Shown: piece after piece, positions 8,051 to 25,777 of the stretch | How positions within the stretch are numbered: the stretch's first letter is position 1 | Layout of the letters: every line of letters begins with the position of its first letter | Assembly: GCA_963675595.2 (NCBI GenBank) | Contig: CAXXLZ010000001.1 | Coordinates: forward strand, 864,001-928,000 | Reading direction: 5' to 3' | Source of the DNA: Thermodesulfobacteriota bacterium | GTDB taxonomy: Bacteria; Desulfobacterota; Desulfarculia; JACQYL01 | DNA: 64,000 bases | Notes under the pieces: model-generated | Told to the model about the DNA's origin: nothing | Databases searched by the model: none | The model's input: only the letters and a program-made list of their open reading frames with translations | Translations under genes and position numbers: made by a program

Positions 8051-10423
8051 TCAGCTGTTCTCCGGATATTTAAAGGAAACGTTGAAGGTCCCGGAGATAT
8101 GTGGACAATTGAGAGTCATCACCCCGGTGGTGCTGCCTGTGAGGTTCAGACTCAAGGCGCAGGACTGTCCAAGGATGTCGGATTGAACGGAGATGCCGTC
8201 CGTAAAGTCGGGATCCAGGTGAGCCGTCAATCGACCTGCGGCTAATAAAACGATTACGCAGGACCCCGTGTCGTATTTCTGAAGGTAGAACTTGATGGAC
8301 CCATCGGGGTTATGCCAGATGGCATTGGTGGGAATAGACGGCCCGGTTTCTCCGTTGTCGGGATACGTCAAGGATACGGGAACGGAAAATGAACGAGTTG
8401 GAAGTTGGGCCGTGAGCGTGCCGGCGGAACCCCCGGCCGTACTGAGGGTGAGTGAGTAATTTTGACCCAGGATATCCTGAGTGCAGGATATACCGTCCTT
8501 GTAGTTCGGATCCAAAAAGGCCGTGAGCACGCCGTCCACAAACGCCACGACTACTGCGGAACCGGCCTGATATTTTTGAAGGTAGAAATTGACCTCGTTC
8601 GCCGAGCATTTCCAGATGCCGTTTTCGGCGTAGTAAGCGGTGCTGTCGAAAAGCAGTTCCACGTCGTCCACAATAAAGTTGGTGATGAGGCTTTCATCGG
8701 TGATCGCGAAGAATTCAACGGCAACATCTTGCCCGATGAACTCTGAAATGTCGAAAGAGGCGCTCCGAATCCAGTCATCCGTGGCATCCGCGTTGCTGAG
8801 AACGGTGATGTCCTTATAGTAGTCGTCGCTTGCGCGGTAGATACCGATTTCGAGCGTGTCGTAGGGTTCGAGCTCTTCCTCTTCCGTCTCGATACCGTAC
8901 CAGAAACGGAGCGTCGCGTTCTTGGCCGTGGAGGGAATCTTGAAATCCTGGGCGAGATAATCGAATTCCATGTAGTCGTATCCGCCCAGCCATGCGGCCC
9001 AGCTACCCTTATGGGCGCATTCGAGTCCGCCGAAAGTGTAGCAGGGCAGTTCCCAGATCACCCATCCCGTGGAGAACCATGCTCCGTCGTCTCCGTTTTC
9101 AAAGTCGGGGTTTTCCAGAATATTGGTGGTCAGCGCGGCACTGTCTTGGGTTACTGTAACTGTTTTTCCGGCGATGTTCAGCGTGCCCGTTCGCGCGTCT
9201 CCGGTATTGACGGAAACGCTGTAGGTCACCGTGCCGTTGCCGCTGCCCGAGGCCCCCGAAGTCAGCGATATCCAGGAGGCTTGAGAAGATGCGGTCCAGG
9301 CGCAGCCGGCGTTGGAGGCGCTCACCTTGAAAAGACCTTCTCCTCCGCTGGAGTAGAAATTTTCTTCATTCGGCAGCACTGAGTAATTGCACTCCGATCC
9401 ACCGCTCTCGAAGTCGATGTCCAGTGTTTGCCAGAAGAAGGCATAGAAGGTCTCATCATAGTATTGGTAGGTGCAATCGTAATTCATGTGCATGGGAATG
9501 CGGTACAGCCCGTTGGGGCGGTTGGCGGGCCCCCCCCAGCTGTTGAGAATAAGCCAGTAGTGGTTTGCCGGATCGGGGGCGGTATCGTCATAACCCACGA
9601 GCAACACGGCATGTCCGCCTCCCTCGTCCGTGTACGTCATCCCGCAGGTGTCCCGGTAAAAGAGAGCGTTTTCCGATTCGTCGTCCCAGAATGAGTAGAA
9701 ATGGTTCCAACTCGAGTCATCGGGGAGATAAAAGCCGAAAAAAATGGCTTTGTTCTGGTGAAGCACGTTCTTTATGTTGGCAATGGCCGCCGCCTCGCCG
9801 ATCCCGTAGGTTTGAACGGTCACCGGAGTGATGGATCGGATGGGATAATTGGTGTCGGTCTGAATGCCGGCACAACTGGTCACACTGGAACCGTAGTTAC
9901 AGCCGCTTTCGGCATCCGCGAAGGAGGCGTTTCCATTGGACCAAGGAAAGAACATGCCCACTCTCCCATACCAGGAGGCGTACTTCTCCAACGTGCCGCC
10001 GCAGCAGGCAAAGTTGTCCATCTTGCAGGAGTTTAGATACTGAGTGGACAGTCGGTCGTAGATGCCTTGCTGCGTAGACAGCGCCACTTCCACCACGCCG
10101 GTGCCCGCCCAATTCCAGCAGTTTCCGCAGTAACCCTGATTCCGTTCGTCGGGATCGTAGGTCAGATATTGCAGTAGGCTCTTCGATCCGCCCATGCCTT
10201 CCAGCTTGCTTTGTTGCAGCGATTTGGTTATGGCAGGGTCCGTGTACGCGGCGGCGGCATTAAGTCTCTCGCTCTGCCATCTCAAAATCGTGTCCACGGA
10301 GGGCCGCATGATCCGGTCCCGAAGCCGTTCCCGATCGAGGTCGGACGAATCCGCGGACCAGGCGAAGCTTAACGTCGATGCGAAAAGAAAAAAACTCATC
10401 AGAAACCAAAACATCTTTTTCAT
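8051..10423 (-). CDS. Exported C1 (papain-family) cysteine peptidase with BACON-like, beta-sandwich and two C-terminal repeat domains
   Basis: Signal peptide; QGYCGNCW, GGHAVLLVGY and NSWG catalytic motifs; BACON-like WTASSQASWISLTSG...RTGTLNIAG. Confidence 0.85.
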   Translation of the reverse strand: MKKMFWFLMSFFLFASTLSFAWSADSSDLDRERLRDRIMRPSVDTILRWQSERLNAAAAYTDPAITKSLQQSKLEGMGGSKSLLQYLTYDPDERNQGYCGNCWNWAGTGVVEVALSTQQGIYDRLSTQYLNSCKMDNFACCGGTLEKYASWYGRVGMFFPWSNGNASFADAESGCNYGSSVTSCAGIQTDTNYPIRSITPVTVQTYGIGEAAAIANIKNVLHQNKAIFFGFYLPDDSSWNHFYSFWDDESENALFYRDTCGMTYTDEGGGHAVLLVGYDDTAPDPANHYWLILNSWGGPANRPNGLYRIPMHMNYDCTYQYYDETFYAFFWQTLDIDFESGGSECNYSVLPNEENFYSSGGEGLFKVSASNAGCAWTASSQASWISLTSGASGSGNGTVTYSVSVNTGDARTGTLNIAGKTVTVTQDSAALTTNILENPDFENGDDGAWFSTGWVIWELPCYTFGGLECAHKGSWAAWLGGYDYMEFDYLAQDFKIPSTAKNATLRFWYGIETEEEELEPYDTLEIGIYRASDDYYKDITVLSNADATDDWIRSASFDISEFIGQDVAVEFFAITDESLITNFIVDDVELLFDSTAYYAENGIWKCSANEVNFYLQKYQAGSAVVVAFVDGVLTAFLDPNYKDGISCTQDILGQNYSLTLSTAGGSAGTLTAQLPTRSFSVPVSLTYPDNGETGPSIPTNAIWHNPDGSIKFYLQKYDTGSCVIVLLAAGRLTAHLDPDFTDGISVQSDILGQSCALSLNLTGSTTGVMTLNCPHISGTFNVSFKYPENS

Positions 10424-12379: not shown

Positions 12380-14092
12380 TCACCGTCGTCGGACGACGCG
12401 AAAGCCGCCGTCCTCGGCGCACAGTCTCGGATCGCTCCACACCTGTGATGAAATCATGCAGCCCAAACTGCCTGCCAGGAATGATCCTCCTTTGATAAGC
12501 CGATTCAAGGAAGCGGAGTTCATACCGTCCGGAATCCGGGAAAGTGTTGCAGGAGAATTCACCGCATCTTGTTCATAGCTCCAATTGTCGCACCATTCCC
12601 AAACGTTTCCCGAAAGGTTGTGTATCTTCTTTTCTCCCCAGTAACTTGCTCCCCGGGGGAAGGCGTCCACTTCCATAACCGCCGTGCCGGGAATGCCGCG
12701 AACAGGTCTCAAGGTTTCCTCACTGTTGCAGCGGCCCGGCTCCCAAAGGGCCCCCCATGGGTAGTTTTTGAAAGACGGCGGGGAGTTGTGGGAAACCGAG
12801 GCGACGAGCCGGCTTCCGTCGACGTCCCCTAGCGCCGCGGTAGTCCATTGGAATTCCGTGGGTAGACTTCCGCCTCGCCAGTCGGCATAAGCCTTTGCCG
12901 CGAACCAGGAAACGTACGTTACCGGATGCCGGTCCGCCGATGGTGGAAAACGATCCGGTGCAGGCCAATGTTTCAGATAGTCCCCGTCATGAAAGGCGGT
13001 CGGAATGCGATCCTTCCGCCATTGTGGATTTGCCTGAACGAAATCAAGGAACTCACGGTTCGTGGTTTCCGTAGCCGAAATGAGAAAGACCGGGCCGTCC
13101 CTTGGCGCGACCTTGACCCAATCCGGTTGGGAAGACGGATCGGTCGGCATCTCCACGTTCGACAACTCGACCAGCGGATAAGTGGACAGGGGAAAACCGT
13201 GGGTCAGGGCCAATGTGGAGATGGTAGGGCGCTGATGTTGGTTCAGTCGCTCCGCCGCCTCCGCAACTTTGTCTTCCAGATATTCCCAGATTTCCCAGAC
13301 CTCGACCACATTGTCCCGATTGCCGTCCGCCCCGCCCTTGAGGCCCTCCATGAGGAAATAAGTGAACGCGCCGTGACCCGGATCGGCCAATTCAACGGAT
13401 AGCTGATCTCCCTCGGAAGCGGTGATGACGATTCGACCTGTTCCGCCGAATTCTCTGAATGCATCCTTTACCTCACGGTGATGAAAGGATTCGCCTCGAG
13501 GATAGCTGATCACCGTGGCCGAACTGAAACAACAATCCACGAACAAGATCAAACGGCGTGCCCGGATTCGGTTGATCAGTCCACTGATTTCTTTTTGTGA
13601 TAGGGCGCTGCCCGAAAGAATCTCCAATTCATTTTGTTGATAAGCGCGCAGATCCACTTCGGTGTCGTGCAGAATCCAATAACCCTCCCCGTCGGCGTTC
13701 CGGATCCCATGGGAGGAAAAGTAGATCAGTACCGTGTCCTCGGGAAGGGCGTCCGCTGCAAGGCGCTCCAAGGCCGAGCGTACACCGTTGGTGGTGGCCT
13801 CTTCGTCCAGCAGCGTGTTGAGATCAAGATTCGGCACCGGGAGATGGTTCGGGTCCTTCAGCAAGGAGCGCAAAGCCGAGGCGTCCGCACGGCAGAAACG
13901 AAGTGGACGAATCTTACCGTCGGAAAAACGATCGATGCCGATGAGCAGCGCCCGGTACACTCCGGCGGAAGGGTCTTCCGTGATGCGGAGAGAGGAATCT
14001 TCCACGGGCCGGACCACGATGGCTTTCTGAGCCCGAGCGATGCCCGTCGAAGTCAGGAGGACCAAGATCACGCAGATACACATCTTTCTCAT
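12380..14092 (-). CDS. Exported caspase-family (C14) peptidase fused to an FGE-sulfatase/CLec-fold domain
   Basis: Signal peptide MRKMCICVILVLLTSTGIARA; ALLIGI, YFSSHG and VDCCFS (His-Cys dyad); C-terminal SGNVWEWC...KGGSF...GFRVV. Confidence 0.88.
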   Translation of the reverse strand: MRKMCICVILVLLTSTGIARAQKAIVVRPVEDSSLRITEDPSAGVYRALLIGIDRFSDGKIRPLRFCRADASALRSLLKDPNHLPVPNLDLNTLLDEEATTNGVRSALERLAADALPEDTVLIYFSSHGIRNADGEGYWILHDTEVDLRAYQQNELEILSGSALSQKEISGLINRIRARRLILFVDCCFSSATVISYPRGESFHHREVKDAFREFGGTGRIVITASEGDQLSVELADPGHGAFTYFLMEGLKGGADGNRDNVVEVWEIWEYLEDKVAEAAERLNQHQRPTISTLALTHGFPLSTYPLVELSNVEMPTDPSSQPDWVKVAPRDGPVFLISATETTNREFLDFVQANPQWRKDRIPTAFHDGDYLKHWPAPDRFPPSADRHPVTYVSWFAAKAYADWRGGSLPTEFQWTTAALGDVDGSRLVASVSHNSPPSFKNYPWGALWEPGRCNSEETLRPVRGIPGTAVMEVDAFPRGASYWGEKKIHNLSGNVWEWCDNWSYEQDAVNSPATLSRIPDGMNSASLNRLIKGGSFLAGSLGCMISSQVWSDPRLCAEDGGFRVVRRR

Positions 14093-14109
14093 GCTTGGAT
14101 CCCTTCCGG

Positions 14110-17100
14110 CTATTGCCAGTCGCCGTAGAGGACAAAGGCGCTCCAATAGTATGGGTGGGACCACTCCGCGCGCTTCATTAACGAAAGCTTGGCGAGACGT
14201 AGAGATTCCGATTTGTCGTGTCCGCTCAGATAGTTTTCGTAGAATCCGCGCATGAGTTCACGAGTGGCTTCGTCGTCCACGTCCCACAAAGAGCATAGTA
14301 CGCTCGGTGCCCCCGCGAACATGAGTGCCCGAGTGAGACCCACCAGATCATCCCCGGCGCCGAGTTTGCCTTTACCCGAGGAACACGCGGACAGGCTCAC
14401 GAGAGATACGCCACGCCAGTCCAGGCCGAAAAGCTCGTGCATTTCCAGATTGCCGTCGTTTTCCCCATCGGGCGTCAAGGCCAGGTACGATAGAGGCGGT
14501 GCGATCTCATTGAAAATGCCGTGGCAGGCAAGGTGAACCACGTCGGGACTCCCCAGCCGGGCGAGCGGCTGTTTGACATACGTCTCCGTGGCCTCGGTGC
14601 GTTTTCGCAGAACTGCCTTCGGAAACAGACTCGCGACCTCGGCGGCCTCGCGCTCGGCCCCCGGCAACGGCGATAGGGCCGTCACCGGATTGCCGACGGC
14701 GAATATCCTGCTTCGGCCGGAGCGGCGCTTATTCAGCAGATAACGATAGACGCCCGCCGAGGGTGAAACGACCATACGATGGGAAGCGACCAGGACCTCG
14801 CCGTTGTCTGCGTTAAGGGCGCCGAAAGGAATCTTGTACATGGGGCCCCACGGAATCACCACGAGGGCCTCGTGTCCAAGGAGTTTCTCAATGGGTTGGA
14901 TAAGTCGCGAATACAGTCCGCCCGACAAAGACCGTAATTTCGGTAAGTCCGTATCGCCGGCTTCCAGCACTCGTACAAAGGCCTCCAGTTCGGCCTCCAA
15001 GGTCTCGCGGCTCACATCCACCCGTTCAAAATGGAGACTATTCCGCGTTATCACGAATACCCACAGCTCATTCCGTTTTTTCCCGTCCGGATATTTCATT
15101 TCCCCCGGGTGGTGGTACTCCACCAGAACAACACCGTCTCCCAGAAACGATTGGACTTCTTCCAACGTGGGGGCGTCCACGCAAATCAGAGACCCGAGTT
15201 CGGCATCTGCACGCCTGATCTCCTCGATCAGTTCCAGACGTTGTCTCTCCATCGCGCCCATCTTTCGTTCAACCGTCTCCGGTGCCGACCGGGTCTTTTG
15301 TCCGACCGGACCCGAGGACTCCAATGTCCAGGAATCTCTCTCCTCACTCAGCGCCCGATACTCTCGTTCCAACCGGTCCAATTGGGCGCTTTTCGCATAG
15401 GTGGTGTCGTTCCGTGATGAGGCGACCAACTCCTCCGTGGCCAGCAGGTCCAGAAACGATTTGGCCCGTCTTCTTTCCAGGGCGTTGAAGGCTTCGGACT
15501 CGGCCCCCATCGCCAGGGACGCCGCGGCCAAGTTGTCATAGTAGTTTCCATGAGCCGCCTGGAACTTCGCTCGGCGGGAACCCTCCCCGATTTTGCCTCG
15601 AACCTGTTCGAAGTATTCGATTCCGCGTTTCAGGGAGGACACGGCTTCGCGGGGACGATCGGCGAGGCGGAGCAATTCACCCAGATTGCACGAAACCGTG
15701 CAGGCGCTCTGGGGCTCTCCGGCCTCCATGACGATGGACAAAGCCTCTCGATACAGGGGCTCGGCTTTGTCGTAATCTCCCATCGCCGCATAGAGCCCGG
15801 CCAGATTGTTCAGACTCTGAGCGCAGGCCGGGTGCTTCTGACCCAACGCCTTTTCCCTGATTGCCAATGTCCTTCGATACAAAGGTTCGGCCTCGTCGTA
15901 TCTCCCCATGGCTTCATAGAGTGTCGCCAAGTCGTTCACACTCCGGGCGTAGTCCGGGTGGCCTTCACCGAGCGCCGCCTTCATCACGGTCATGGCCTCT
16001 CGAAGCAGCGGTTCGGCTTCGTCGAGATTTCCCGTGACTCGGCACAGTCCCGCCAGATTGTCGAGGCTCAAAGCGTAGTCCGGATGGTTCGGCCCCAGCA
16101 CTTCCTTTCGAATGGACACGGACTCCTGCAACAATCGTCGAGCCTTGTCGTACTCGCCGATGGACTGATGGAGCGCGGCCAGGTTGTCCAGGCTTTGGGC
16201 ATATTCAGGACTTTTCTTCCTTAGGGTGCTCACGTCTATGGACTTGACTTCAAGCAACAAGGGCTCGGCCTTGCCGAACTCGCCCATGGCCATGTAGAGC
16301 AGGGCCAGGTTGTTGAGGCAGGACGCATACTCCCCGTGTTTCTCTCCCAAGGCCTCCTTCTTGATGACCAGGGCTTTCCGGAAGAGCGGTTCGGCCTCGG
16401 CGTATTCGGCCAGGGTACGGTAGAATTCGCCCAGGTTATTGAGGCTGGTGGCATAGTCGGGATGCTTTTCTCCCAGAACGCTTTTTCTGAGGTCCAAGGC
16501 CTTCTTCAGAAATCGTTCCGCTTTGCCGTATTCTCCCATGGAAACATACAGAGAGGCCAAGTTGTTCAGGCTTTGGGCGTAAGCCGGGTGCCCTTCCCCC
16601 AAGGCTCGTTTCCTGACGTCCATGGCCTGCAGGTACAATGTCTCGGCCTGAGGGAATTCCCCCATGCATTTATAGAGATAGGCGAGATTGTTGAGGCTGA
16701 CGGCGTAGTCCGGGTGGTTTTCGCCGAGAACCCTCTTTCTGATGGCGATTGTTTCCTTCAGAAGGGGCTCGGCTTTGGCGTATTGGTCCGTGGAAACGTA
16801 CAGGGCGGACAGGCTGTTCAAAGTGGTGGCATAGTCCGGATGCTTGTCACCCAGGTGTCTTTTCCGGATTTGCATGGCCTTGAGCAGGAGCGGTTCCGCC
16901 TCGGCATACCTCCCCATGGAACGATACAACTCGGCCAAGTTGTTGAGACCCAGCGCGTAATTCGGGTGATTCTCCCCGACGATCCTTTTCCATACGGCCA
17001 TGGATTCTTTGTACAGAGGCGCCGCCTTTTCGTATTTGCCCATGGATTTATACAGCAACGCGAGGTTGTTGAGGCTGACGGAGTATTCCGCGGGATTCGC

Positions 17101-17298
17101 GGCAGCCCTACTCTTGCGCAAGGTCACCACTTCTTCGGCAATGCGTGCGGCTTCCTCGTATCGCCCCTGTTGATAAAGTTGAATCACTTCGCGGTTCAAG
17201 GCATCGGCGTCCCGACTCCATGACGGAGGAGCGCACAGAATCGACACGATCACAAGAAACGCAAACAGCCCCCTTACCCGTTTCCTCGTTTGCGGCAT
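14110..17298 (-). CDS. Exported TPR-repeat CHAT-domain protease
   Basis: Signal peptide; about 13 42-aa TPR repeats (SLNNLA.LY...G.Y..AEPL...GE.HPD); CHAT motifs HLACHG, LSACSSG, SLWDVDD and HPYYWSAF. Confidence 0.92.
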   Translation of the reverse strand: MPQTRKRVRGLFAFLVIVSILCAPPSWSRDADALNREVIQLYQQGRYEEAARIAEEVVTLRKSRAAANPAEYSVSLNNLALLYKSMGKYEKAAPLYKESMAVWKRIVGENHPNYALGLNNLAELYRSMGRYAEAEPLLLKAMQIRKRHLGDKHPDYATTLNSLSALYVSTDQYAKAEPLLKETIAIRKRVLGENHPDYAVSLNNLAYLYKCMGEFPQAETLYLQAMDVRKRALGEGHPAYAQSLNNLASLYVSMGEYGKAERFLKKALDLRKSVLGEKHPDYATSLNNLGEFYRTLAEYAEAEPLFRKALVIKKEALGEKHGEYASCLNNLALLYMAMGEFGKAEPLLLEVKSIDVSTLRKKSPEYAQSLDNLAALHQSIGEYDKARRLLQESVSIRKEVLGPNHPDYALSLDNLAGLCRVTGNLDEAEPLLREAMTVMKAALGEGHPDYARSVNDLATLYEAMGRYDEAEPLYRRTLAIREKALGQKHPACAQSLNNLAGLYAAMGDYDKAEPLYREALSIVMEAGEPQSACTVSCNLGELLRLADRPREAVSSLKRGIEYFEQVRGKIGEGSRRAKFQAAHGNYYDNLAAASLAMGAESEAFNALERRRAKSFLDLLATEELVASSRNDTTYAKSAQLDRLEREYRALSEERDSWTLESSGPVGQKTRSAPETVERKMGAMERQRLELIEEIRRADAELGSLICVDAPTLEEVQSFLGDGVVLVEYHHPGEMKYPDGKKRNELWVFVITRNSLHFERVDVSRETLEAELEAFVRVLEAGDTDLPKLRSLSGGLYSRLIQPIEKLLGHEALVVIPWGPMYKIPFGALNADNGEVLVASHRMVVSPSAGVYRYLLNKRRSGRSRIFAVGNPVTALSPLPGAEREAAEVASLFPKAVLRKRTEATETYVKQPLARLGSPDVVHLACHGIFNEIAPPLSYLALTPDGENDGNLEMHELFGLDWRGVSLVSLSACSSGKGKLGAGDDLVGLTRALMFAGAPSVLCSLWDVDDEATRELMRGFYENYLSGHDKSESLRLAKLSLMKRAEWSHPYYWSAFVLYGDWQ

Positions 17299-17343
17299 GT
17301 TGACGTCCTTTGCTTGAGTTACCGTTATCGCAGTTGCGGCGTC

Positions 17344-18402
17344 TCAGTAGAAGCCGTCATAGATGTCCATGTCTCCCGACCGGCTCCTTCGTTCCACTCC
17401 GGCTTTGAATTGTCGTAGGGCTTCATAATCGGTGAACTCCACCCGGCGGTTCATGGCTTGGTGCTCCTCCGTGTCGTTGGGCACCAGCGGTCTGGAATCA
17501 CCGTACCCGCGGATTTCAAAGCGCTCCTCCTTCAATTGAAGCCGGTCCACCAGATATCGCTTTACACTGTCCGCCCGAGACAGGGAGAGCCGCCTCAGAC
17601 CCTCGGGGGAATCACCGCACTGAGTATGTCCTTCAATGAGAATTCTCTTGTCCTTCAGTGTACCGCTTTCCAAGGCTCGTGCGAGTTCTCTCAGCTGTCC
17701 GTGGGATTCGGGCAGAATATCGCATCGATTCATCTCGAACCGAATCATGAGCGGTACTTTCGGCCCCTTGTAGGGTGACTGGCCCCTGGTGAACGTCCGG
17801 TTCAATTTGGATCGGATTTCTTCGGAGGGCACAAGCCGGCTTGAAACCTGCCGGTCCAACAGGGCTGCTATGCGGTCTTCCAATTCGATCGCCCTTTGAG
17901 CCGCAAACGACATGCACTGCTTGGTGCCTGCATCTGCGGTCTCTGCGGCGGCGGAGGCGCAAATGCGCAGCCGTTCCCGAATCTCGTATAAGTTCGGCGG
18001 TATTCGGACCGAAGGCCTCAACAGCAGATCGGCTACCTGCAGGGCGTTCTTGAAAGCCGGTTCGCGACTCGGATCAAGACCCGCCGCTTCGGAATAGTGC
18101 TCCAACGCACGATAAAGGCTCCGTGTGTTGTGCCAGGTCGGGCCGGTTCGCCTCCATTCTTCAAGGGCTTGTTGGTGAAGCACATAAGCCAGGTTGAAAT
18201 GCGCCGCCGCGTATCTCGGGTCGACTTGAACGGCGTTTTCATAACATGCGGCCTCCTCGTCCGAGTTGGGCAGGGTCCGGGCCGTTTCCAGTCCTTTGTC
18301 CACCCATTGCCGTGCCTCATCCAAAGGGGCCGCCACGGCCGGAAAGCTCGTGAAGAACAGCAAACAAGAAACAAAAAAAACGGCCTGATAACAGGTCCTC
18401 AT
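17344..18402 (-). CDS. Exported TPR + OmpA-like C-terminal domain protein
   Basis: Signal peptide (AVA-A); TPR (YAAAHFNLAYV); IEGHT...LSLSRADSV...GYGDSRPLVPN...NRRVEF. Confidence 0.85.
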   Translation of the reverse strand: MRTCYQAVFFVSCLLFFTSFPAVAAPLDEARQWVDKGLETARTLPNSDEEAACYENAVQVDPRYAAAHFNLAYVLHQQALEEWRRTGPTWHNTRSLYRALEHYSEAAGLDPSREPAFKNALQVADLLLRPSVRIPPNLYEIRERLRICASAAAETADAGTKQCMSFAAQRAIELEDRIAALLDRQVSSRLVPSEEIRSKLNRTFTRGQSPYKGPKVPLMIRFEMNRCDILPESHGQLRELARALESGTLKDKRILIEGHTQCGDSPEGLRRLSLSRADSVKRYLVDRLQLKEERFEIRGYGDSRPLVPNDTEEHQAMNRRVEFTDYEALRQFKAGVERRSRSGDMDIYDGFY

Positions 18403-18787: not shown

Positions 18788-20968
18788 TCAAGGCGTCTTT
18801 TCACCGGTTACGGCACCCCGCAGCCAATGCCATGCGGCGTCGATGTCGAAGAATCTAGATCCATAACCGAGGGCGCGCAGTCTCTTCGGCAGGAAGTGAT
18901 CATGCTTTTCTGTGATTGTATCCGCCGCATTCTCCGCAAGTTGTTCCGGAGTCGGCTTGGGTTTTCGGAGGATGTCCTCGACCGCCGCGACAAAGTCGTT
19001 CTCTTGACCTTCGAAAACGTCGATCACACCGGCGAAACAGTCGACCGTGAGTCCTTCCCCGCGCAAGAGAGCGGAAATCGTGTGGCAGGTTTCGTCTCCA
19101 AGCCAGGGAAGGATATGGAGATGTCTTTCATTCCGAATCACACTCGCGTTTTCGAGCCCCAGGGAACGAAAGCACTCGACTCCCTCTTCGAACAGGGCCT
19201 TGGCGGCGCGATCCAGGTAGATCGGCATCGTCCCGTCCCGGTACACCCGAAACATTTCCCGCCTTACCCGGTCATGTACCCCATATCCGCTTCCTCCAAA
19301 CCTCGGAGGTTTACCGCCTACGGCTCTCTTGAGCACTACCCGCTTGTTGTCGGGATCCACATGCCGGACTTCCCACCTCCTGCCGGCGAACACAACCAGT
19401 TGTCCCTCAAACAAAGGATTGTCGATGGGGACCGTGCCCAGAATTCGTCCTTCGAACTCCAGGCGGTACTCTTCCGGAGTCTTGAAAGCGGTATAGAACG
19501 TATAGTGTTCGACGAGTCTTTCCCCTTTGCGGCCGAGAACGATTTGTCCGTCCCGTGTTTGTGTGATGAGGTCGTGTTCTCCGAGGCTCCTGAGGAACTC
19601 CACGTACAGGTTCCGGTCGATCCGCCCAAAGGGGCCGGTGTCGCAGAGCAGCGACCAGAGCTGCACGGCCGCCACGCCGCCGTATTGACCGATGACGGAG
19701 AGGGTTTGTTGCACCAACGTCGACAGATGGTACCGGCTCTCCTGGGGCGGCTCATACCATTTATCGAGCAACAGGTTGATCATGGCGATGCACTGGAAGG
19801 TTTCCAGGCGCAACCGATCCCGCAGGTGACTTCTTGAAGTGACCTCATCCTCGGTGATGAACAACCTCAGAACGGCGGGTTCGCCTCTTCGTCCGGACCG
19901 ACCGAGACGCTGACGCAAACCGGCCACCGAATGCGGGGCGGTCACTTGAGCAATGGAATCCACCGATCCGATGTCGATTCCAAGTTCGAGAGTCATGGTA
20001 CAAATTGCGGTGGTCGGTTTTTTCCCTTGTTGGAGCCTGCACTCCAGACCCTCGCGAATTTCCTTGGAGAGATTCCCATGATGGGGGAAGAATTCGTTGG
20101 GAACTCCGTCGCGGTTGCAGCGGTCCGCCAAGCCGGCGGCGATTTCTTCCGTCCTCCGTCGCGTATTGGCGAAGACCAGATGCGACTTTCCTCTCAAGAC
20201 GGCGTAAAGGTCGTCCTCGACCCGTTCGAACACCGGTGGGTCGGTACCCTCGGGGTAGGCCGGGGAGCGATAGCCCCTGAGCTGTATTTTCAGGTCGGAC
20301 TTGCTTGCCGTTGATTCGATGATTTCGCAGGGAACGTCTTGATTGGGCCTCAGGCACTTTGCGACACGGTCCAGCTCGCCCAGCGTGGCGCTGAGCGCGA
20401 TTCGAGGAATAGTCCGGCGTAGTAGGAATTCCAGCCGGTGCATCAGAGACTGCAGTTGGCGGCCTCGCTCGGTGCCTATGAAGGAATGAAACTCATCGAT
20501 GATGAGGTAACGCAATCCGTTGAATGCGGAGCCGATCCAATTCGTTTGGTTCAGAAGCAGCGACTCCAGAGATTCGGGCGTAATCAAAAGAACGCCGCCG
20601 GGCTTCTTTCTCTGCCTGTTCTTGAGGGAGGGGCCCACATCTCCATGCCACGGAGTCACCTGCAACCGCAGCAGATCGCAGAGGTCTTGAAGTCTCCGAT
20701 ACTGATCGTTGATCAATGCCTTCAAGGGGCTGATATAGAGGATTCCAATACCGTCGAGTTCGAGTCGCGCAATGTGTGAACAAGCGGGAAGGAACGCGGC
20801 CTCCGTCTTTCCGGAGGCTGTGGAAGCGCTGAGGACAACGTCGCAATCCCCTCTCAGAATCGGTTCGACGGACCGTTCCTGAATATCGCGAAGGGCCCGC
20901 CAACCCTGCTTCCACACCCAGCGCCGCACTCCCTCGTGTAACAAAGCAAAGGCGCGAGACTCACTCAT
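18788..20968 (-). CDS. sngC: Shango system Lhr-like DEAD/DEAH helicase
   Basis: ASGKTEA, DEFH, LSAT, TLELGIDIG and QRLGRSGRR motifs; lies after the TerB-like and DUF2791 ATPase genes. Confidence 0.85.
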   Translation of the reverse strand: MSESRAFALLHEGVRRWVWKQGWRALRDIQERSVEPILRGDCDVVLSASTASGKTEAAFLPACSHIARLELDGIGILYISPLKALINDQYRRLQDLCDLLRLQVTPWHGDVGPSLKNRQRKKPGGVLLITPESLESLLLNQTNWIGSAFNGLRYLIIDEFHSFIGTERGRQLQSLMHRLEFLLRRTIPRIALSATLGELDRVAKCLRPNQDVPCEIIESTASKSDLKIQLRGYRSPAYPEGTDPPVFERVEDDLYAVLRGKSHLVFANTRRRTEEIAAGLADRCNRDGVPNEFFPHHGNLSKEIREGLECRLQQGKKPTTAICTMTLELGIDIGSVDSIAQVTAPHSVAGLRQRLGRSGRRGEPAVLRLFITEDEVTSRSHLRDRLRLETFQCIAMINLLLDKWYEPPQESRYHLSTLVQQTLSVIGQYGGVAAVQLWSLLCDTGPFGRIDRNLYVEFLRSLGEHDLITQTRDGQIVLGRKGERLVEHYTFYTAFKTPEEYRLEFEGRILGTVPIDNPLFEGQLVVFAGRRWEVRHVDPDNKRVVLKRAVGGKPPRFGGSGYGVHDRVRREMFRVYRDGTMPIYLDRAAKALFEEGVECFRSLGLENASVIRNERHLHILPWLGDETCHTISALLRGEGLTVDCFAGVIDVFEGQENDFVAAVEDILRKPKPTPEQLAENAADTITEKHDHFLPKRLRALGYGSRFFDIDAAWHWLRGAVTGEKTP

Positions 20969-20976
20969 GCGAAACC

Positions 20977-22302
20977 TCAGAGCCTGAAAGAGGCCAATTC
21001 ATCATTGTCGTCGGCATCCGTCGTTCCCACGGAGGGCATATTGGTGTCGGCCTCTTCAGGAATGCGGACTCGACTGATGAGCCGGTCCCAGTGCAGATCG
21101 GGATTCTGCTCGAGGATCGCCAGGAGATCGACAAACGCCTTGATGGTGTTGCGCGGCGTTCTGAAGTAGGCGTCTCCGACTCGCTCGGAACAATGGGCCA
21201 GAAAAGCGGTCAGCGCCTCATCGGGAACCAGGTACTTGTCTTGATCGCCCCCGGCGAAAACATGGCGCAGGTTGCGCAGCAGAACATACAGCTCTTCCGG
21301 GGCAAGATTGGCCAGGTGAAGGGTTGGGGCGTAGTAGTCCACAAGTCCGGCTTTTTCGGCGAAGGCATTGTCGGCCAGACGGGATTGCAGGGCTTCATAG
21401 CTGTAGAGACCTTTGCGCGGGTCCAGCAAAAAATCGGGGGTGCCGCCCAGAATGAAGCCGATGTGCCCGGCGCTTCCCTGCAGGCAATCATTCAGAATGT
21501 GCAATATCTTTTCATAGTTGGAAACACGCGCCTTTTGACTAGGAAGCTTGTACAGGGCGACGGTTTCATCCAGGTTGACCAAGAGGCCTTGATAGCCCGC
21601 CTGCCGAACGAACAAACTCATGAGCTTCAAATGGTCGTAAATGTCTGCGTCATCAACGATGGTGCGCACGCCCAGAGCGCTACGCGCCTCCGTCTTCGTA
21701 GTGAATTCGCCTCGAAACCAACGCACTGCGTCGGACTTGAGTTGCCGGTTGTCCTGTTCATGCCCTTTCCAGTATGCGGAAACCACTTTGGCGAAGTCGT
21801 ACCCGCCCACCAGTTCGCTCAAGTGATCCAACTGCTGGGAAATCACGGAATCCACCGTCTCGCCCGACGAGTCCGAATGTTTGCGCGCTTCCGTGATGAA
21901 CCGTTCCACAACACTCGACAAGGCATTGCCTTCCGGCTTCGTGCGTGTGGAAATATTCTTCATTAGTTCGGCGTAAAGGTTCCTCGCTTGTCCGCCGGTC
22001 GCGTGAAGCCGCCTTTCGGGAGACAGATCGGCGTGCACGGCGACCAAGCCCTTCTCCAGCGCTATGGAGCGAATCAATTGCAGAAAGAACGTCTTACCCG
22101 AACCGAACTCTCCAATGATCAGGCGGAACGCGGAACCCCCGTCGGATATGCGTTCGATGTCCTTGAGCAAGGCCGCGACCTCGCGGACCCGGCCGACCTG
22201 AATATGCTGCAAACCGATACGCGGCGTCACTCCGGCACGAAGCGACTGAATCACGGCGTCCCGTTCCCTGGGGCGGAGTTTCGGTTTGTTCTCATTGAGC
22301 AT
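20977..22302 (-). CDS. sngB: Shango system P-loop ATPase (DUF2791/BrxD-like)
   Basis: QSLRAGVTPRIGLQHIQVGR, Walker A GEFGSGKT, Walker B LLVNLDE. Confidence 0.87.
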   Translation of the reverse strand: MLNENKPKLRPRERDAVIQSLRAGVTPRIGLQHIQVGRVREVAALLKDIERISDGGSAFRLIIGEFGSGKTFFLQLIRSIALEKGLVAVHADLSPERRLHATGGQARNLYAELMKNISTRTKPEGNALSSVVERFITEARKHSDSSGETVDSVISQQLDHLSELVGGYDFAKVVSAYWKGHEQDNRQLKSDAVRWFRGEFTTKTEARSALGVRTIVDDADIYDHLKLMSLFVRQAGYQGLLVNLDETVALYKLPSQKARVSNYEKILHILNDCLQGSAGHIGFILGGTPDFLLDPRKGLYSYEALQSRLADNAFAEKAGLVDYYAPTLHLANLAPEELYVLLRNLRHVFAGGDQDKYLVPDEALTAFLAHCSERVGDAYFRTPRNTIKAFVDLLAILEQNPDLHWDRLISRVRIPEEADTNMPSVGTTDADDNDELASFRL

Positions 22303-24529
22303 CGATCATCTCCTTGGCCAGGCTCACGTCCACGTAGACGGGGTCTCCGTCGTCGAGGAGAGGAGCATGTGCGGTATCGAAAGCCCATTCATTGAGCACT
22401 TCCATGGCGCCGTCCACCATGAGCCCCAGTTCTTTGCACAGTTCATGAAACGCGGTTCGGTCCCATGTTTCTTTGGTGATGAGTCGGTCGAAAAGCTTCC
22501 GATGGGGACGATCCAATCCCACGAGCGGATCCTTGTTGGAAACGACATCTCCGGAAGGCGTCTCGGCCTCGAGAGCCTCTTCGGTCCGTTCGGAGAATAT
22601 CCGCTCCAGCACACCTTGCACCTGTCGCGTTTCCTCTTCTCGAATCCTGATCAACTCTTCATTCAGCTGAAACCGTTTTGCGGGGGGCGGCTCCGCCCTC
22701 GGCTTTGGAACGGAAAAAATGGGTTCCCGGTCTCGAAAGGCCACGGTCACCGGCTCGGTTTCCGCGGCCAAGGCATGAATATCCCCGGCAACCCGATCCT
22801 TTTCCAGGCCGATGGAGGCATAAAGCTTTTCCAGTTGCCTGACTTCCTTCGGGGCTATGCGGCCGTCCGCATGGGCCACCGAAATCAGTATGCGACTGAT
22901 TGCGTTTTTTTCCGGGACATCGAGTCGCGAAAGAATGGGTTTCAGACCCGCCGCACCCTGTGGGGTTCTCATGCACCAAGTCAAGAAAGCGGATAGGGAA
23001 TTCTTTTCAATATCGGTGAGTCGACGGTCGTCCCGTATCAAATGTCTGAGCGTCGCCTCTTCAGCCGGCGACAGGTCCCGGTCGATTTGGCTTACCAGAG
23101 CCCCGAGTCGAAGAACGGCGCCCATGGTTCGGAACTCCGGCGACGGCCGGAAATCCGAACCATGTCCCTGAGGAAAGACCGCCACTTTGCCGCCGGGGTC
23201 CGGCTTCATGGGATGAAATCGAACGTCGGGCGCCATTCCGAATCCCGCCGCCTGCATCACGATCGCCAGGTTCTCCGCGTCTTTTTTGGTCATTCGTTCG
23301 GGAGACTCCCGGCCGAAGCCCTCATAGAGGACATCCACGTCGATCAACGTGGGACCGTTGGCGCAAATGCGGGCAAGGCTTCCTTTTGCCGCGATGACGT
23401 TGGGAGACTTGCTCTTCAATTGGTCGGGAAGAAGCGCCAGGGTGTCCAAAGAGTCGGCGTCGGCCCCTTTTCTCGCGAGCCAACGGCTGTAGGGTTCCAA
23501 GTCGGCCGTGCATTCTTCCACTAGCCCGCTCAGTTTCTTCAATGGTGCGGTCAGAATGAACGGATTGGGGATGTCCGGCGTCCTGAGTTTCAGACCACCC
23601 GCCAGGGAAGGACTCGCGGCGCGATATTGGACCTTCAGAGGCGTCTTGTTCGGCTTGACGACCAGCCCCGCGCCGAAACACTTTTCGTATCGGGCGGCGA
23701 AAAGTTCCCGGAACTCCCTCGCGCAGCGACGCGCGGGCGTCTTAAGTCCGAAGTCGGGATGCAAAGTGTACCATTGGAGCGCCAAGTCCGCGGGGATGGG
23801 TTTTCCCTCGGCGACCATCCGCGCAAGGAGGAACTGAAAGGATGGCAGGCAGTATCGGTCGTTGAGGTCAAGATAGTCGGGCACGGGTTCGTCGCTGCGA
23901 TACACCATCCATTCCATGGCGAGCAGGCCGTGGGCGTAGCGGCGAAACGACCGATTGCTTCCGTAGATGGCGAGCAGGCGTTTCACTTCGTCGATAATTT
24001 CCCGCCGCTCACGGTCGGAGATGCCTTCCCGTTGACCGTCGACGAATAATCGACGTTCGAGACCATAGAAGAACAAAAAGACATATCCGATATAGGTTTC
24101 AGGTTCGGACCGTCCGGTGGCCGGCCATTTCAGGTAGGCGCCGCGGCACTTTGCCGGAATCGTCGCATACCTCGGCCAATAATCCATTTCGTCGCCGGCC
24201 TCCCAGGGTTCCGCCGGCGATACCTTGAGCCTTGGGTTGATGAGACACGCGTCGTCGCCGTACCCGTGGATATCCGGCAGGCGTTCGCCCACGTAGATCA
24301 GCCCGCCGGGGATGTCATAGCCTTGTACGGTGACGGGCCGGTCCTTTCCGTACCATTGTGTCGGTTTCTTCCTGGAGCGCGAAGAAGGGGCGGGCGCACT
24401 CTCATCGGCGTTCAGTATGTCGTGACGGAAGGTCGGTTCCGGGCGTTTCGATACGTCTTTTTGGGAGAAGAGTCTCCTCACGACACGATACGCGAGATAC
24501 AGGAGAAACAGGCCGACGAGCAGTTTCAT
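22292..24529 (-). CDS. sngA: Shango system TerB_N/TerB/TerB_C protein with N-terminal TM helix
   Basis: YWPRYATIP..CRGAYLKW and IGYVFLFFYGLERR (TerB_N); ADGRIAPKE (TerB); GLMVDGAMEVLNEWAFD (TerB_C). Confidence 0.87.
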   Translation of the reverse strand: MKLLVGLFLLYLAYRVVRRLFSQKDVSKRPEPTFRHDILNADESAPAPSSRSRKKPTQWYGKDRPVTVQGYDIPGGLIYVGERLPDIHGYGDDACLINPRLKVSPAEPWEAGDEMDYWPRYATIPAKCRGAYLKWPATGRSEPETYIGYVFLFFYGLERRLFVDGQREGISDRERREIIDEVKRLLAIYGSNRSFRRYAHGLLAMEWMVYRSDEPVPDYLDLNDRYCLPSFQFLLARMVAEGKPIPADLALQWYTLHPDFGLKTPARRCAREFRELFAARYEKCFGAGLVVKPNKTPLKVQYRAASPSLAGGLKLRTPDIPNPFILTAPLKKLSGLVEECTADLEPYSRWLARKGADADSLDTLALLPDQLKSKSPNVIAAKGSLARICANGPTLIDVDVLYEGFGRESPERMTKKDAENLAIVMQAAGFGMAPDVRFHPMKPDPGGKVAVFPQGHGSDFRPSPEFRTMGAVLRLGALVSQIDRDLSPAEEATLRHLIRDDRRLTDIEKNSLSAFLTWCMRTPQGAAGLKPILSRLDVPEKNAISRILISVAHADGRIAPKEVRQLEKLYASIGLEKDRVAGDIHALAAETEPVTVAFRDREPIFSVPKPRAEPPPAKRFQLNEELIRIREEETRQVQGVLERIFSERTEEALEAETPSGDVVSNKDPLVGLDRPHRKLFDRLITKETWDRTAFHELCKELGLMVDGAMEVLNEWAFDTAHAPLLDDGDPVYVDVSLAKEMIDAQ

Positions 24530-24751
24530 ATTCCGTTCTCCCCGGGAGCGGACGGCTGAGGAACAGTGCACGTGTACCGTATGAGCGGCTCCGTTGGACA
24601 CTGCTTTCCGTCCGGATTATACGAATCCGATGTCCGGTGTCAAAGGATGAACGACCATTTCGAGCGGAAGGAACCTGATTCAGGGAGATCGGGGGCATGA
24701 TCGGTGACTTTGAAGTGATTTCGCCCGGTGATTTAATGAATCAGGGCCCGC

Positions 24752-25561: not shown

Positions 25562-25777
25562 GCCCGCGCACCTCGCTTATTCAAAGGTATGGCCAAATTT
25601 CATCCACTCGGAGGGGGAGTCCCTTCGCGCAACTCCCGATCAGGGTTGCCGTGACACCTTCCTCGTTTTCAAGGTCTCATGAGTCCGCATACCCGGCCGG
25701 GTCTTCGGCAATCTCTCGCAGATGCGCTTTTCATGTCGCAAGTCCCGTCGTGAGCTGGTCGTAAGACTTGTCACAAC

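What the first reader, a model, noticed from the sequence alone, without database searches (positions are those of the whole stretch)
12380..18402. Candidate extracytoplasmic two-protease system: TPR-OmpA + TPR-CHAT + caspase-FGE, all with signal peptides
Seen: three tightly packed co-oriented genes, each starting with a Sec-type signal peptide. Both clan CD proteases keep their His-Cys dyads (CHAT HLACHG/LSAC; caspase SSHG/DCC). Known: the best-characterised bacterial TPR-CHAT and caspase systems (Craspase, gasdermin activators) are cytoplasmic. Inference: this is a periplasmic/surface cascade in which the TPR array senses a ligand, CHAT activates the caspase, the FGE/CLec domain binds a target and the OmpA-like protein tethers the complex or is a substrate. 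It sits directly downstream of Shango on the same strand, hinting at envelope-level defence or cell-contact signalling.
Basis: partly seen in the sequence, partly recalled or inferred. Interest (0 to 1): 0.8.

Follow-up and report, generated by a model that had tools for sequence, protein, structure and literature searches.

The report
Exported OmpA, CHAT and caspase gene trio
Three adjacent genes encode a cell-wall-binding protein and two caspase-like proteases that all appear to be exported to the cell envelope; the set recurs in a few uncultured bacteria, its job is unknown, and its parts were each known before.

Summary
On the minus strand lie TPR-OmpA_C (17344-18402), TPR-CHAT (14110-17298) and Peptidase_C14-FGE-like (12380-14092; true start is M25), separated by 45 and 17 nt, just downstream of Shango SngABC.

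- **Catalytic residues:** both His-Cys dyads are invariant in the orthologues, 45 of 45 CHAT and 18 of 18 caspase.
- **Export signals:** signal-peptide-like N-termini are conserved in all three families. I used a crude rule, not SignalP.
- **Conservation:** the trio is rare and patchy. It was not found in 94 class genomes or 400 phylum genomes. Gene order elsewhere could not be seen.
- **Second lineage:** another bacterial family pairs an exported WD40-caspase with a TPR-OmpA gene in 5 of 5 genomes.
- **FGE domain:** it lacks one catalytic cysteine and is probably a binding domain.

Best reading: a periplasmic, peptidoglycan-tethered dual-protease module. A CHAT-to-caspase cascade and a defence role are untested. 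The Shango adjacency was seen only in near-identical strains.

Prior art exists: caspase-FGE fusions, OmpA in metacaspase operons, and the periplasmic TPR-CHAT protein DdvA. This is a new variant of a known kind.

The parts
17344..18402 (-). P0001, 352 aa. Signal peptide (about 1-24, AVA|AP), then a TPR-like helical N-domain (about 26-200), an invariant FTRGQSPYxGPRVP linker, an OmpA_C-like domain (222-319) and a conserved C-terminal tail RKRSGxxDxYDxLY.
   Evidence: Pfam. Alignment A2 of 22 sequences. AlphaFold2 model with pLDDT 90 and pTM 0.83. Foldseek hits only OmpA_C domains (3td3, 5u1h).
17446..17739 (-). OmpA_C-like peptidoglycan-binding domain of P0001. The orthologues keep GH[AT]DSxG...YN...LSxRRA...NRRVEF. 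This genome's copy reads GHTQCGD, with the motif Asp replaced by Gln.
14110..17298 (-). P0002, 1062 aa. N-terminal signal or anchor segment (MPQTRKRVRG + LFAFLVIVSILC), about 11 TPR_12/TPR_10 repeats (about 35-560), a helical linker and a CHAT protease domain.
   Evidence: Pfam. Orthologue N-termini. Ribosome-binding site AAGGA 9 nt upstream.
14119..14919 (-). CHAT domain (residues 794-1060). Catalytic His926 is the codon at 14521-14523. Catalytic Cys972 is the codon at 14383-14385.
   Evidence: Pfam E 4.2e-68. H922, H926 and C972 invariant in 45 of 45 sequences. Codons checked.
12380..14092 (-). P0003/P0326, 570 aa from M25. Signal peptide (MRKMCICVILVLLTSTGIARA|Q), an orthocaspase p20-like domain and an FGE/C-type-lectin-like domain.
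13199..13954 (-). Peptidase_C14 domain. His152 is the codon at 13709-13711. Cys212 is the codon at 13529-13531. D94, S150 and D210 are also invariant.
   Evidence: The best NCBIfam hit is caspase_w_EACC1 at 115.6 bits, below its cut-off of 140.
12389..13093 (-). FGE-sulfatase-like domain. The first of the two catalytic cysteines of true FGE is replaced; the second (C569) is kept. The C-terminus is conserved, not hypervariable.
   Evidence: Profile alignment to 5nxl and 6s07. Alignment A1. No second copy of the 3' end in the genome.
18788..24601 (-). Shango SngA (22292-24601), SngB (20977-22302) and SngC (18788-20968). These are upstream neighbours separated from the trio by 385 nt. They are not shown to belong to it.
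   Evidence: PADLOC. Pfam. No terminator or promoter call in the gap.

Best explanation
The three genes form one small operon that encodes a periplasmic protease module tethered to peptidoglycan.

Shown:
- The three genes are tightly spaced.
- Each product has an N-terminal export signal that is conserved across its orthologues.
- Both clan-CD proteases (TPR-CHAT and a C14 orthocaspase) keep invariant His-Cys dyads.
- The three families travel together on the same contigs in uncultured bacteria, often with 2-3 TPR-CHAT paralogues.
- An exported caspase next to a TPR-OmpA_C gene recurs in a second lineage.

Inferred:
- After Sec export, the TPR-OmpA_C protein binds peptidoglycan. Through its TPR-like domain or its conserved C-terminal tail it docks the proteases.
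- The fast-diverging TPR arrays of the CHAT protein(s) and the non-catalytic FGE/lectin-like domain of the caspase are the ligand-recognition parts.
- Ligand binding switches on site-specific cleavage of proteins in the envelope. The caspase probably cuts after Arg or Lys.

Open: the target could be an incoming foreign protein, the cell's own envelope proteins, or the OmpA-like partner itself.
For: Operon. The gaps are 45 and 17 nt and each gene has a ribosome-binding site.

Export. The crude signal rule is positive in 24 of 26, 35 of 45 and 20 of 20 family members, against 4 of 25 other window proteins. A close CHAT relative supports a cell-wall-proximal location. P0250 is 63% identical over 48% of the CHAT query, and its precomputed Pfam domains include PG_binding_1 and SLT_2.

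Active proteases. The dyads are invariant.

Linkage by identical longest-contig length.
- All three families: 40094, 47645 and 51359 (two CHATs on the last).
- Caspase plus OmpA: 343613, 13657 and 23891.
- Caspase plus CHAT: 27191 (two CHATs) and 12523.
- OmpA plus CHAT: 11807 (two CHATs) and 18826.

Second lineage. In family f48, 5 of 6 genomes carry a TPR-OmpA_C gene. In 5 of 5 of those a caspase domain is encoded immediately upstream on the same strand. There the caspase is fused to a signal peptide and WD40 repeats.

Variable recognition part. Paralogous TPR-CHATs on one contig are 76-90% identical in the CHAT half and 29-65% in the TPR half.

FGE domain as a binder. One catalytic cysteine is replaced. 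Periplasmic FGE-fold proteins with structural roles exist: PorK/GldK appears among the PDB hits.

Arg/Lys specificity. D94, S150 and D210 are invariant. I recall that they occupy the positions of the acidic S1 pocket of metacaspases; that rests on memory, not on a call. Orthocaspases cleave after basic residues (PMC6426788, abstract seen).

Precedent. DdvA is a periplasmic TPR-CHAT proposed to sense a protein signal (PMC11506125).
Against: - Contig-length matching shows co-occurrence, not adjacency or order. One short match (3040 bp) is clearly chance, because the contig is too small for both proteins and they come from different sources.
- Of the 10 caspase-FGE orthologues on contigs of 10 kb or more, 3 (11466, 55776, 12796) have no matching partner in my lists.
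- The contigs of 343613 and 13657 bp show no orthologous CHAT.
- This genome's own OmpA_C copy has lost the motif Asp (GHTQ), so peptidoglycan binding may be weakened here.
- No physical interaction, cleavage, localisation or expression data exist.
- The signal peptides rest on a home-made rule. For P0002 I cannot tell a cleaved signal from an uncleaved N-terminal anchor.
- The AlphaFold2 model of the caspase-FGE protein was poor (mean pLDDT 57), so it gives no structural support for the FGE part.
Confidence: 0.5

Rival explanations
1. Two-tier cascade. Ligand-activated TPR-CHAT cleaves and activates the caspase-FGE zymogen, which then executes an envelope-level defence such as abortive lysis or destruction of incoming phage or predator proteins.
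For: - A CHAT-to-caspase cascade is real in the cytoplasm. SAVED-CHAT cleaves and activates PCaspase and gives abortive infection (bioRxiv 10.1101/2023.06.23.546230, abstract read).
- The periplasmic TPR-CHAT of DdvA was proposed as a phage-signal sensor.
- The trio lies in an island with Shango, type I R-M, Fic, RhuM and transposases.
- It is patchy and absent from relatives.
- The TPR arrays diversify faster than the protease half.
- PADLOC 'caspase' model hit, E 1.4e-12.
Against: - No cleavage site or zymogen feature was identified.
- Caspase plus TPR-OmpA occurs without any CHAT in family f48 (20-kb loci). It possibly does so on the 343613 and 13657 bp contigs too, so CHAT is not obligatory upstream of the caspase.
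- The Shango adjacency was seen only in near-identical strains.
- Island context is guilt by association.
- No transmembrane or cytoplasmic output component lies in the operon.
Confidence: 0.15
2. Housekeeping envelope function. The module matures, turns over or remodels the cell's own periplasmic, outer-membrane or cell-wall-associated proteins, or degrades peptides for nutrition. It has no role in conflict.
For: - The f48 counterpart sits among exported lipoproteins. These include a Gly-zipper protein and a CsgG/LpoB-like domain fused to the OmpA protein. It lies next to grpE-dnaK, not in a defence island.
- A secreted papain-type C1 protease with BACON and MAM domains lies 2 kb downstream in the window.
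- OmpA-family partners are typical of envelope machines such as PorE, YfiB and Pal.
Against: - The distribution is very sparse for a housekeeping role: 0 of 94 class genomes and 0 of 400 phylum genomes.
- Caspase and CHAT enzymes are usually site-specific regulators, not bulk peptidases. This rests on established knowledge of clan CD, not on a call.
Confidence: 0.2
3. Sortase-like transpeptidation. One of the clan-CD enzymes removes the conserved C-terminal tail of the OmpA-like protein (...RKRSGxxDxYDxLY) and links the protein covalently to another envelope component. GPI transamidase, legumain ligases and PorU work this way.
For: - The C-terminal tail is conserved, with invariant R341 and near-invariant D349.
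- There is an NCBIfam analogy to PdsO, the OmpA-like protein associated with a dedicated proteobacterial sortase. The hit is weak (33 bits) and covers only the OmpA_C domain.
- That clan-CD enzymes act as transamidases is recalled knowledge.
Against: The idea rests purely on analogy. No acceptor was identified. The tail is predicted to end a helix that packs on the protein.
Confidence: 0.05
4. The genes are only neighbours. They are three unrelated exported proteins with no shared function.
For: - Each architecture exists on its own elsewhere. C14+FGE is present in 26 of the 30 nearest Atlas clusters. TPR-CHAT proteins are abundant.
- Nine distant caspase-bearing metagenome loci showed no OmpA_C neighbour.
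Against: - Contig lengths coincide repeatedly for orthologues of all three families.
- The gaps are only 17 and 45 nt.
- The caspase/TPR-OmpA pair is conserved in a second lineage.
Confidence: 0.08

Closest known systems
[quoted passage not shown]
   Same: A TPR array followed by a CHAT domain with a His-Cys dyad, located in the periplasm. It was proposed to sense a protein signal in the envelope.
   Different: DdvA has a cytoplasmic zinc-binding anti-sigma domain, a transmembrane helix and an ECF sigma partner. P0002 has only 10 residues before its hydrophobic segment, and no sigma factor gene is nearby. DdvA has no caspase-FGE or OmpA partner. DdvA proteolysis itself is still unproven.
SAVED-CHAT / PCaspase cascade of a type III-B CRISPR/CBASS locus (bioRxiv 10.1101/2023.06.23.546230, abstract read)
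   Same: One locus encodes a CHAT protease and a C14-type caspase. There the CHAT enzyme activates the caspase.
   Different: That system is cytoplasmic and is triggered by cA3 through a SAVED domain. Here there is no SAVED domain, no CRISPR or CBASS gene, and all parts carry export signals.
Craspase (Csx29 TPR-CHAT with Cas7-11)
   Same: The TPR-CHAT architecture. A profile of CHAT relatives (A4, which does not include P0002 itself) finds Craspase TPR-CHAT chains as the best solved matches (8d9f, 7x8a; E about 1e-8).
   Different: There are no cas genes nearby. P0002 has an export signal. P0002's CHAT region alone finds no PDB sequence at E<=1.
Prokaryotic metacaspase/orthocaspase-FGE fusions and metacaspase-OmpA operons (PMC3501461, passages read); FGS/CLec sensor domains of conflict systems (PMC7159879, PMC7517822, PMC10907252, passages read)
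   Same: The C14+FGE-sulfatase architecture (33 of 671 metacaspases). N-terminal helices likely to be signal peptides. OmpA in 14 of 217 metacaspase operons. The FGE/CLec fold read as a ligand binder.
   Different: Those surveys do not describe this TPR-OmpA + TPR-CHAT + caspase-FGE set. Here there is no DGR, no vWA/MoxR or STAND partner, and no EACC1 gene.
OmpA_C-type peptidoglycan anchors of envelope machines (PorE of T9SS, YfiB, Pal, PdsO)
   Same: An OmpA_C fold, with a TPR domain in the same protein as in PorE.
   Different: All NCBIfam scores are far below their cut-offs. P0001 has no lipobox or beta-barrel. The N-domain is specific to a very small family: only 4 of the 150 best representatives match it end to end.

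Membership tests
CHAT (Pfam PF12770), clan CD | Domain match and His-Cys catalytic dyad | tested here: met
   E 4.2e-68 over residues 794-1060. H926 and C972 are invariant in 45 of 45 sequences.
Craspase / Csx29 | Association with Cas7-11 (type III-E) and a cytoplasmic location | tested here: not met
   No cas genes among the window ORFs scanned. An N-terminal export signal is present.
DdvA-type TPR-CHAT anti-sigma | N-terminal cytoplasmic zinc-binding anti-sigma domain plus a TM helix, with an adjacent ECF sigma gene | tested here: not met
   Only 10 residues precede the hydrophobic segment. No sigma-70/ECF family was found among the neighbours scanned.
SAVED-CHAT/PCaspase | SAVED sensor domain on the CHAT protein | tested here: not met
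   Pfam lists only TPR families and CHAT for P0002.
Peptidase C14 orthocaspase/metacaspase | p20-like domain with His-Cys dyad | tested here: met
   PF00656 E 5e-16. H152 and C212 are invariant in 18 of 18 sequences.
Peptidase C14 orthocaspase/metacaspase | Acidic S1 pocket giving Arg/Lys specificity | tested here: inconclusive
   D94, S150 and D210 are invariant. Their equivalence to metacaspase S1 residues is recalled and was not aligned here.
NCBIfam NF047832 caspase, EACC1-associated type | Score above the curated cut-off, with an upstream EACC1 TM gene | tested here: not met
   115.6 bits against a cut-off of 140. The upstream gene is the TPR-CHAT.
Formylglycine-generating enzyme (true FGE) | Two catalytic, copper-binding cysteines in the C-terminal motif | tested here: not met
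   In the profile alignment to 5nxl and 6s07, the first Cys (FLCHESYC) aligns with Ala or other residues. Only the second is kept. The domain match itself is met (E 1.9e-26).
DGR variable protein (CLec/FGS target) | Hypervariable C-terminal region with a template repeat in the genome | tested here: not met
   The C-terminus is highly conserved in A1. There is no second copy of the last 381 nt in the genome.
OmpA_C-like peptidoglycan-binding domain (PF00691) | Domain match plus the conserved Asp and Arg of the binding motif | tested here: inconclusive
   Domain E 7.2e-17 and fold match to 3td3. Orthologues keep GHxDS...LSxRRA...NRRVEF. This genome's copy has Gln in place of the Asp. The role of that Asp in binding diaminopimelate is recalled.
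Shango (SngABC) | The trio being part of the system | tested here: not met
   SngA, SngB and SngC are complete without it. A 385-nt gap separates them. The adjacency was seen only in strains about 96-98% identical.

The most novel reading that the evidence does not exclude
This would be the first extracytoplasmic caspase-type cascade. A peptidoglycan-tethered sentinel complex uses diversifying TPR arrays and a lectin-like FGE domain to recognise a foreign protein or glycan crossing the periplasm (from a phage, a predator or a toxin). TPR-CHAT then activates the orthocaspase. The caspase either destroys the intruder or cuts the cell's own envelope tethers to abort infection. It would be the envelope counterpart of the SAVED-CHAT to PCaspase cascade.
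Probability: 0.12. Interest if true: 0.8.

Novelty: new variant of a known kind. Interest (0 to 1): 0.5.

Why it matters
Bacterial caspase-like proteases have been worked out almost only in the cytoplasm: Craspase, SAVED-CHAT/PCaspase and the gasdermin activators. What they do outside the cytoplasm is an open question, even though surveys have long noted signal peptides on many of them. This trio offers a compact three-gene case that can be tested. It has two intact proteases, a cell-wall anchor and candidate ligand-binding parts. If it works as a unit, it would show how regulated caspase-type proteolysis operates without ATP or nucleotide signals in the periplasm. It might also reveal a way of sensing invaders at the envelope. 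If it is housekeeping, it still defines partners for an uncharacterised class of exported orthocaspases.

Tried and rejected
**Complex prediction.** I ran the mature caspase-FGE protein with the mature TPR-OmpA protein, using alignments A1 and A2. The result was no verdict (score 0.00, mark 0.32). This is evidence neither for nor against binding.

**Searches for real neighbourhoods.**
- The search for related loci on genome contigs with the single protein returned only generic FGE-domain loci (37).
- The search for related loci on metagenome contigs with A1 also returned only generic FGE-domain loci (80 kept). The pattern GN[VA]WEWC swamped the scan.
- tblastn over those loci found no CHAT or TPR-OmpA N-domain beside them.
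Gene order in other organisms was therefore not seen, except in near-identical strains.

**The genome search for orthologues.**
- 0 full-length matches in 40 relatives.
- 0 of 400 in the phylum sample at E<=1e-40.
- 0 of 94 in the class.
- CHAT region: 19 of 400 genomes at E<=1e-60, but at most 38-40% identity.
- Repeating the phylum draw with min_completeness 70 gave essentially the same sample.

**Expression.** No RNA holder was listed.

**Structure.**
- The AlphaFold2 model of the caspase-FGE protein was too poor for a fold search (pLDDT 57).
- Foldseek of the P0001 model matched only the OmpA_C part.

**PDB sequence searches.**
- P0002's CHAT region alone found nothing at E<=1.
- The A3 profile was swamped by TPR proteins.

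**DGR idea.** Rejected.

**Earlier findings of this scan.** Nothing was returned.

**Promoter and terminator scan.** There were 0 promoter-like sites, and terminator-like sites were at background. It says nothing on whether the trio is transcribed with Shango.

**Supplements.** They are closed. Table S2 of PMC3501461 (metacaspase operons) and table S7 of PMC11506125 (DdvA-like proteins) may bear on novelty, and I could not see them.

**Literature.** I found no paper describing this trio.


Full report
**What is there**

The window carries three co-oriented minus-strand genes at 17344-18402, 14110-17298 and 12380-14164.

Their translations and Pfam scans give:
- P0001, 352 aa: TPR_11 plus OmpA.
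- P0002, 1062 aa: about 11 TPR_12/TPR_10 repeats plus CHAT (E 4.2e-68).
- P0003: Peptidase_C14 (E 5e-16) plus FGE-sulfatase (E 1.9e-26).

The listed GTG start of the third ORF is too early. M25 at 14092 has a GGAAGGGA ribosome-binding site, and the 570-aa form is the one on public record (P0326). With that start the gaps are 45 and 17 nt, which fits an operon.

Upstream on the same strand, after a 385-nt gap, lies a complete Shango system: SngA E 2e-80, SngB E 4.2e-183, SngC E 1e-263 (PADLOC).

**Catalytic residues**

I collected orthologues from the 5.8-billion-protein collection.
- Caspase-FGE: of 82 hits, 19 are full length with both domains (P0004-P0022). One is 94% identical and the rest 45-52%.
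- TPR-OmpA: of 153 hits, 25 are full length at 42-97% identity (P0086-P0110).
- CHAT region: of 478 hits, 44 are 42-55% identical over the whole 503-residue region (P0206-P0249). Identity then drops to 36% or less.

Findings:
- In the caspase family, H152, G153, D210 and C212 are invariant in 18 of 18 aligned sequences. C211 varies, so C212 is the nucleophile.
- In the CHAT family, H922, H926 and C972 are invariant in 45 of 45. The whole region around the dyad is nearly identical across the family.

Both enzymes are therefore under strong selection as proteases.

**Export**

SignalP was not available, so I used a crude rule of my own: a hydrophobic 10-mer, a preceding K or R, and a small-x-small site.

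| Group | Positive by the rule |
|---|---|
| TPR-OmpA proteins | 24 of 26 |
| TPR-CHAT proteins | 35 of 45 |
| Caspase-FGE proteins | 20 of 20 |
| Other proteins of the window | 4 of 25 |

- Six of the ten CHAT misses begin inside a TPR and are probably fragments. Most of the others have a hydrophobic stretch at the very start.
- Of the four positive controls, two are integral membrane proteins, one is SngA and one is unknown.
- Many orthologues show classic sites such as AQA|KD, VSA|DE and AGA|AS.
- For P0002 itself I cannot tell a cleaved signal from an N-terminal anchor. Either way the body of the protein lies outside the cytoplasm.
- One close CHAT relative (P0250, 63% identity over 48% of the query) carries PG_binding_1 and SLT_2 domains in the precomputed Pfam list. 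That fits a cell-wall-proximal location.

**Is the trio conserved?**

It is rare and patchy among genomes:
- No full-length caspase-FGE orthologue in 40 relatives.
- None in the 94 other genomes of the class.
- None in a 400-genome sample of the phylum.
- The CHAT region finds at most 38-40% identity in that sample.
- The N-domain of P0001 matches end to end in only 4 of the 150 best representatives out of 1.84 billion. The rest are hits to one generic TPR motif.

My two collection scans returned only generic FGE loci, so I could not read neighbourhoods directly. Instead I compared the 'longest contig' lengths reported for the three orthologue lists. Identical lengths recur:

| Contig length (bp) | Families sharing it |
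|---|---|
| 40094 | caspase + OmpA + a 325-aa CHAT fragment that represents P0002's own cluster |
| 47645 | all three |
| 51359 | all three, with two CHATs |
| 343613 | caspase + OmpA |
| 13657 | caspase + OmpA |
| 23891 | caspase + OmpA |
| 27191 | caspase + two CHATs |
| 12523 | caspase + CHAT |
| 11807 | OmpA + two CHATs |
| 18826 | OmpA + CHAT |

- Other contigs hold three (31204) or two (46113) CHAT paralogues.
- A match at 4102 bp would leave no room for a CHAT gene between the other two.
- A match at 3040 bp is clearly chance, so short matches should be distrusted.
- Of the ten caspase-FGE orthologues on contigs of at least 10 kb, seven share a length with a partner and three do not.

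This shows co-occurrence, not order.

One cluster member is named in NCBI as a SUMF1/EgtB/PvdO family protein of a Candidatus Desulfacyla MAG.

**A second lineage**

The TPR-OmpA profile also found family f48.
- Five of its six genomes, in three genera, encode a signal-peptide TPR-OmpA_C protein fused to a CsgG/LpoB-like domain.
- In five of five, a caspase domain is encoded immediately upstream on the same strand.
- There the caspase is the C-terminus of a signal-peptide WD40-repeat protein with intact GHG and DACYS motifs.
- No CHAT lies within the 20-kb loci.

So the recurrent core is an exported caspase, carrying a binding or scaffold domain, next to a TPR-OmpA_C protein. The TPR-CHAT genes are an addition in the family studied here.

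**The parts in detail**

*P0001*
- It folds with high confidence (pLDDT 90, pTM 0.83). Only its OmpA_C part has solved relatives.
- The family has three strongly conserved features:
  - a conserved N-terminal block (AQQWVDKGL...NSDEEAxCY);
  - an invariant linker, FTRGQSPYxGPRVP;
  - a conserved C-terminal tail, RKRSGxxDxYDxLY, with invariant R341.
- The orthologues keep the canonical OmpA_C motif. This genome's copy and its 97% relative read GHTQ, with the Asp lost.

*FGE-like domain*
- It aligns to true FGEs (E about 4e-25) but has lost the first of the two catalytic cysteines.
- PorK/GldK and the Treponema variable protein are among its weaker matches.
- It is not a DGR target: the C-terminus is conserved and no template copy exists in the genome.

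*TPR-CHAT paralogues*
- Paralogues on one contig are 76-90% identical in the CHAT half but 29-65% in the TPR half.
- P0002 is 48-56% identical to its orthologues in the CHAT half and 25-36% in the TPR half.
- The recognition-type part is therefore the variable one.

**Context**

The trio sits in a variable island:
- an IS3-type transposase beside a truncated chemoreceptor gene;
- a secreted papain-type protease;
- an EAL protein;
- Shango;
- Fic;
- a type I R-M system interrupted by a DDE transposase;
- RhuM.

Contigs from other public runs carry the same EAL-trio-SngC-SngB order. One is an 11,751-bp contig with 415 differences; another run holds pieces with fewer differences. These are strains of the same or a very close species, so they do not test a link to Shango.

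**How it most likely works**

Shown:
- operon-like spacing;
- conserved export signals;
- intact proteases;
- co-occurrence of the three families;
- a caspase/TPR-OmpA pair in a second lineage.

Inferred:
- The OmpA-like protein binds peptidoglycan and docks the proteases.
- The TPR arrays and the FGE/lectin-like domain bind ligands.
- Binding switches on site-specific cleavage in the periplasm, where no nucleotide signal is available.
- The caspase probably cuts after Arg or Lys, as orthocaspases do (PMC6426788, abstract). The S1-pocket assignment of D94, S150 and D210 is recalled, not tested.

I give this mechanism a confidence of 0.5. The rivals and their confidences are:

| Rival | Confidence |
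|---|---|
| Housekeeping envelope proteolysis | 0.2 |
| CHAT-to-caspase defence cascade | 0.15 |
| Unrelated neighbours | 0.08 |
| Sortase-like transpeptidation of the OmpA protein's tail | 0.05 |

**Comparison with what is known**

- The 2012 survey (PMC3501461, passages read) reported C14-FGE fusions in 33 of 671 metacaspases. It also reported N-terminal helices likely to be signal peptides, and OmpA in 14 of 217 metacaspase operons.
- Aravind's group and others read the FGE/CLec ('FGS') domain as a ligand sensor in conflict systems.
- The Protein Atlas shows that the C14+FGE architecture is widespread, present in 26 of the 30 nearest clusters.
- A periplasmic TPR-CHAT has been solved: DdvA, proposed as a phage-signal sensor whose proteolysis is unproven.
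- A cytoplasmic CHAT-to-caspase cascade has been demonstrated.
- I found no description of this particular trio in four searches. Supplementary tables were closed.

**Verdict**

An exported, linked module: yes. A cascade, a defence role and a tie to Shango: open.
- It is a new variant of known kinds, of moderate interest.

Noticed in passing
window 8051-10423 (-): A 790-aa protein with a clear signal peptide (MKKMFWFLMSFFLFASTLSFAWSA). It has papain-type Peptidase_C1, BACON and MAM-like domains. It is a third exported cysteine protease within 10 kb of the trio, separated from it by a convergent EAL gene. There are no NCBIfam or PADLOC hits.
   Followed up: partly
window 5250-7864: An IS3-type transposase (rve, rve_3, HTH_21) lies directly before a chemoreceptor ORF. 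That ORF's Cache domain starts at profile position 197 of 298. The receptor gene therefore looks truncated or split by the insertion. A separate CZB-domain ORF lies at 3677-4780.
   Followed up: no
window 27451-36031 (-): A type I restriction-modification system: HsdS 27451-28953, HsdM 32082-33548 and HsdR 33575-36031. A DDE transposase (28916-30625) and a RhuM-family gene (31039-32319) lie between hsdS and hsdM.
   Followed up: no
window 24752-27441 (-): Between Shango and the R-M system there are three genes. One is a 269-aa protein with no Pfam family and a weak NCBIfam hit (PRK14495, 30 bits, cut-off 596). The others are a Fic/DOC protein with Fic-like_C and a weak 23S_rRNA_IVP-like four-helix protein.
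   Followed up: no
window 22292-24601 (-), SngA: My crude signal rule flags a hydrophobic segment (MKLLVGLFLLYLAYRV) about 25 residues into the listed SngA ORF. The true start may be that Met, and SngA may be membrane-anchored.
   Followed up: no
window 17600-17640 (-), P0001 residues about 257-266: This genome's OmpA_C motif reads EGHTQCGDSPEGLRR, whereas 20 of 22 aligned relatives have EGH[AT]DSxGxxxYN. The near-identical relative P0086 shares the change. Peptidoglycan binding may be altered in this lineage.
   Followed up: partly
G000:C2:881520-886068 (L002/L003) and G000:C2:2606994-2608346: The same genome holds another locus with an FGE-like domain followed by a caspase domain (24-30% identity to P0003). 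It also holds a CHAT domain inside a 2892-aa open frame.
   Followed up: no
L151 9406-19528 (-) (G298:C9): In family f48 a run of nine minus-strand ORFs includes the WD40-caspase and the TPR-OmpA-CsgG-like gene. At least seven begin with signal-peptide or lipoprotein-like N-termini; the last ORF starts with a long hydrophilic stretch. One is a Gly-zipper protein and several have no Pfam family. The run lies next to grpE-dnaK.
   Followed up: partly
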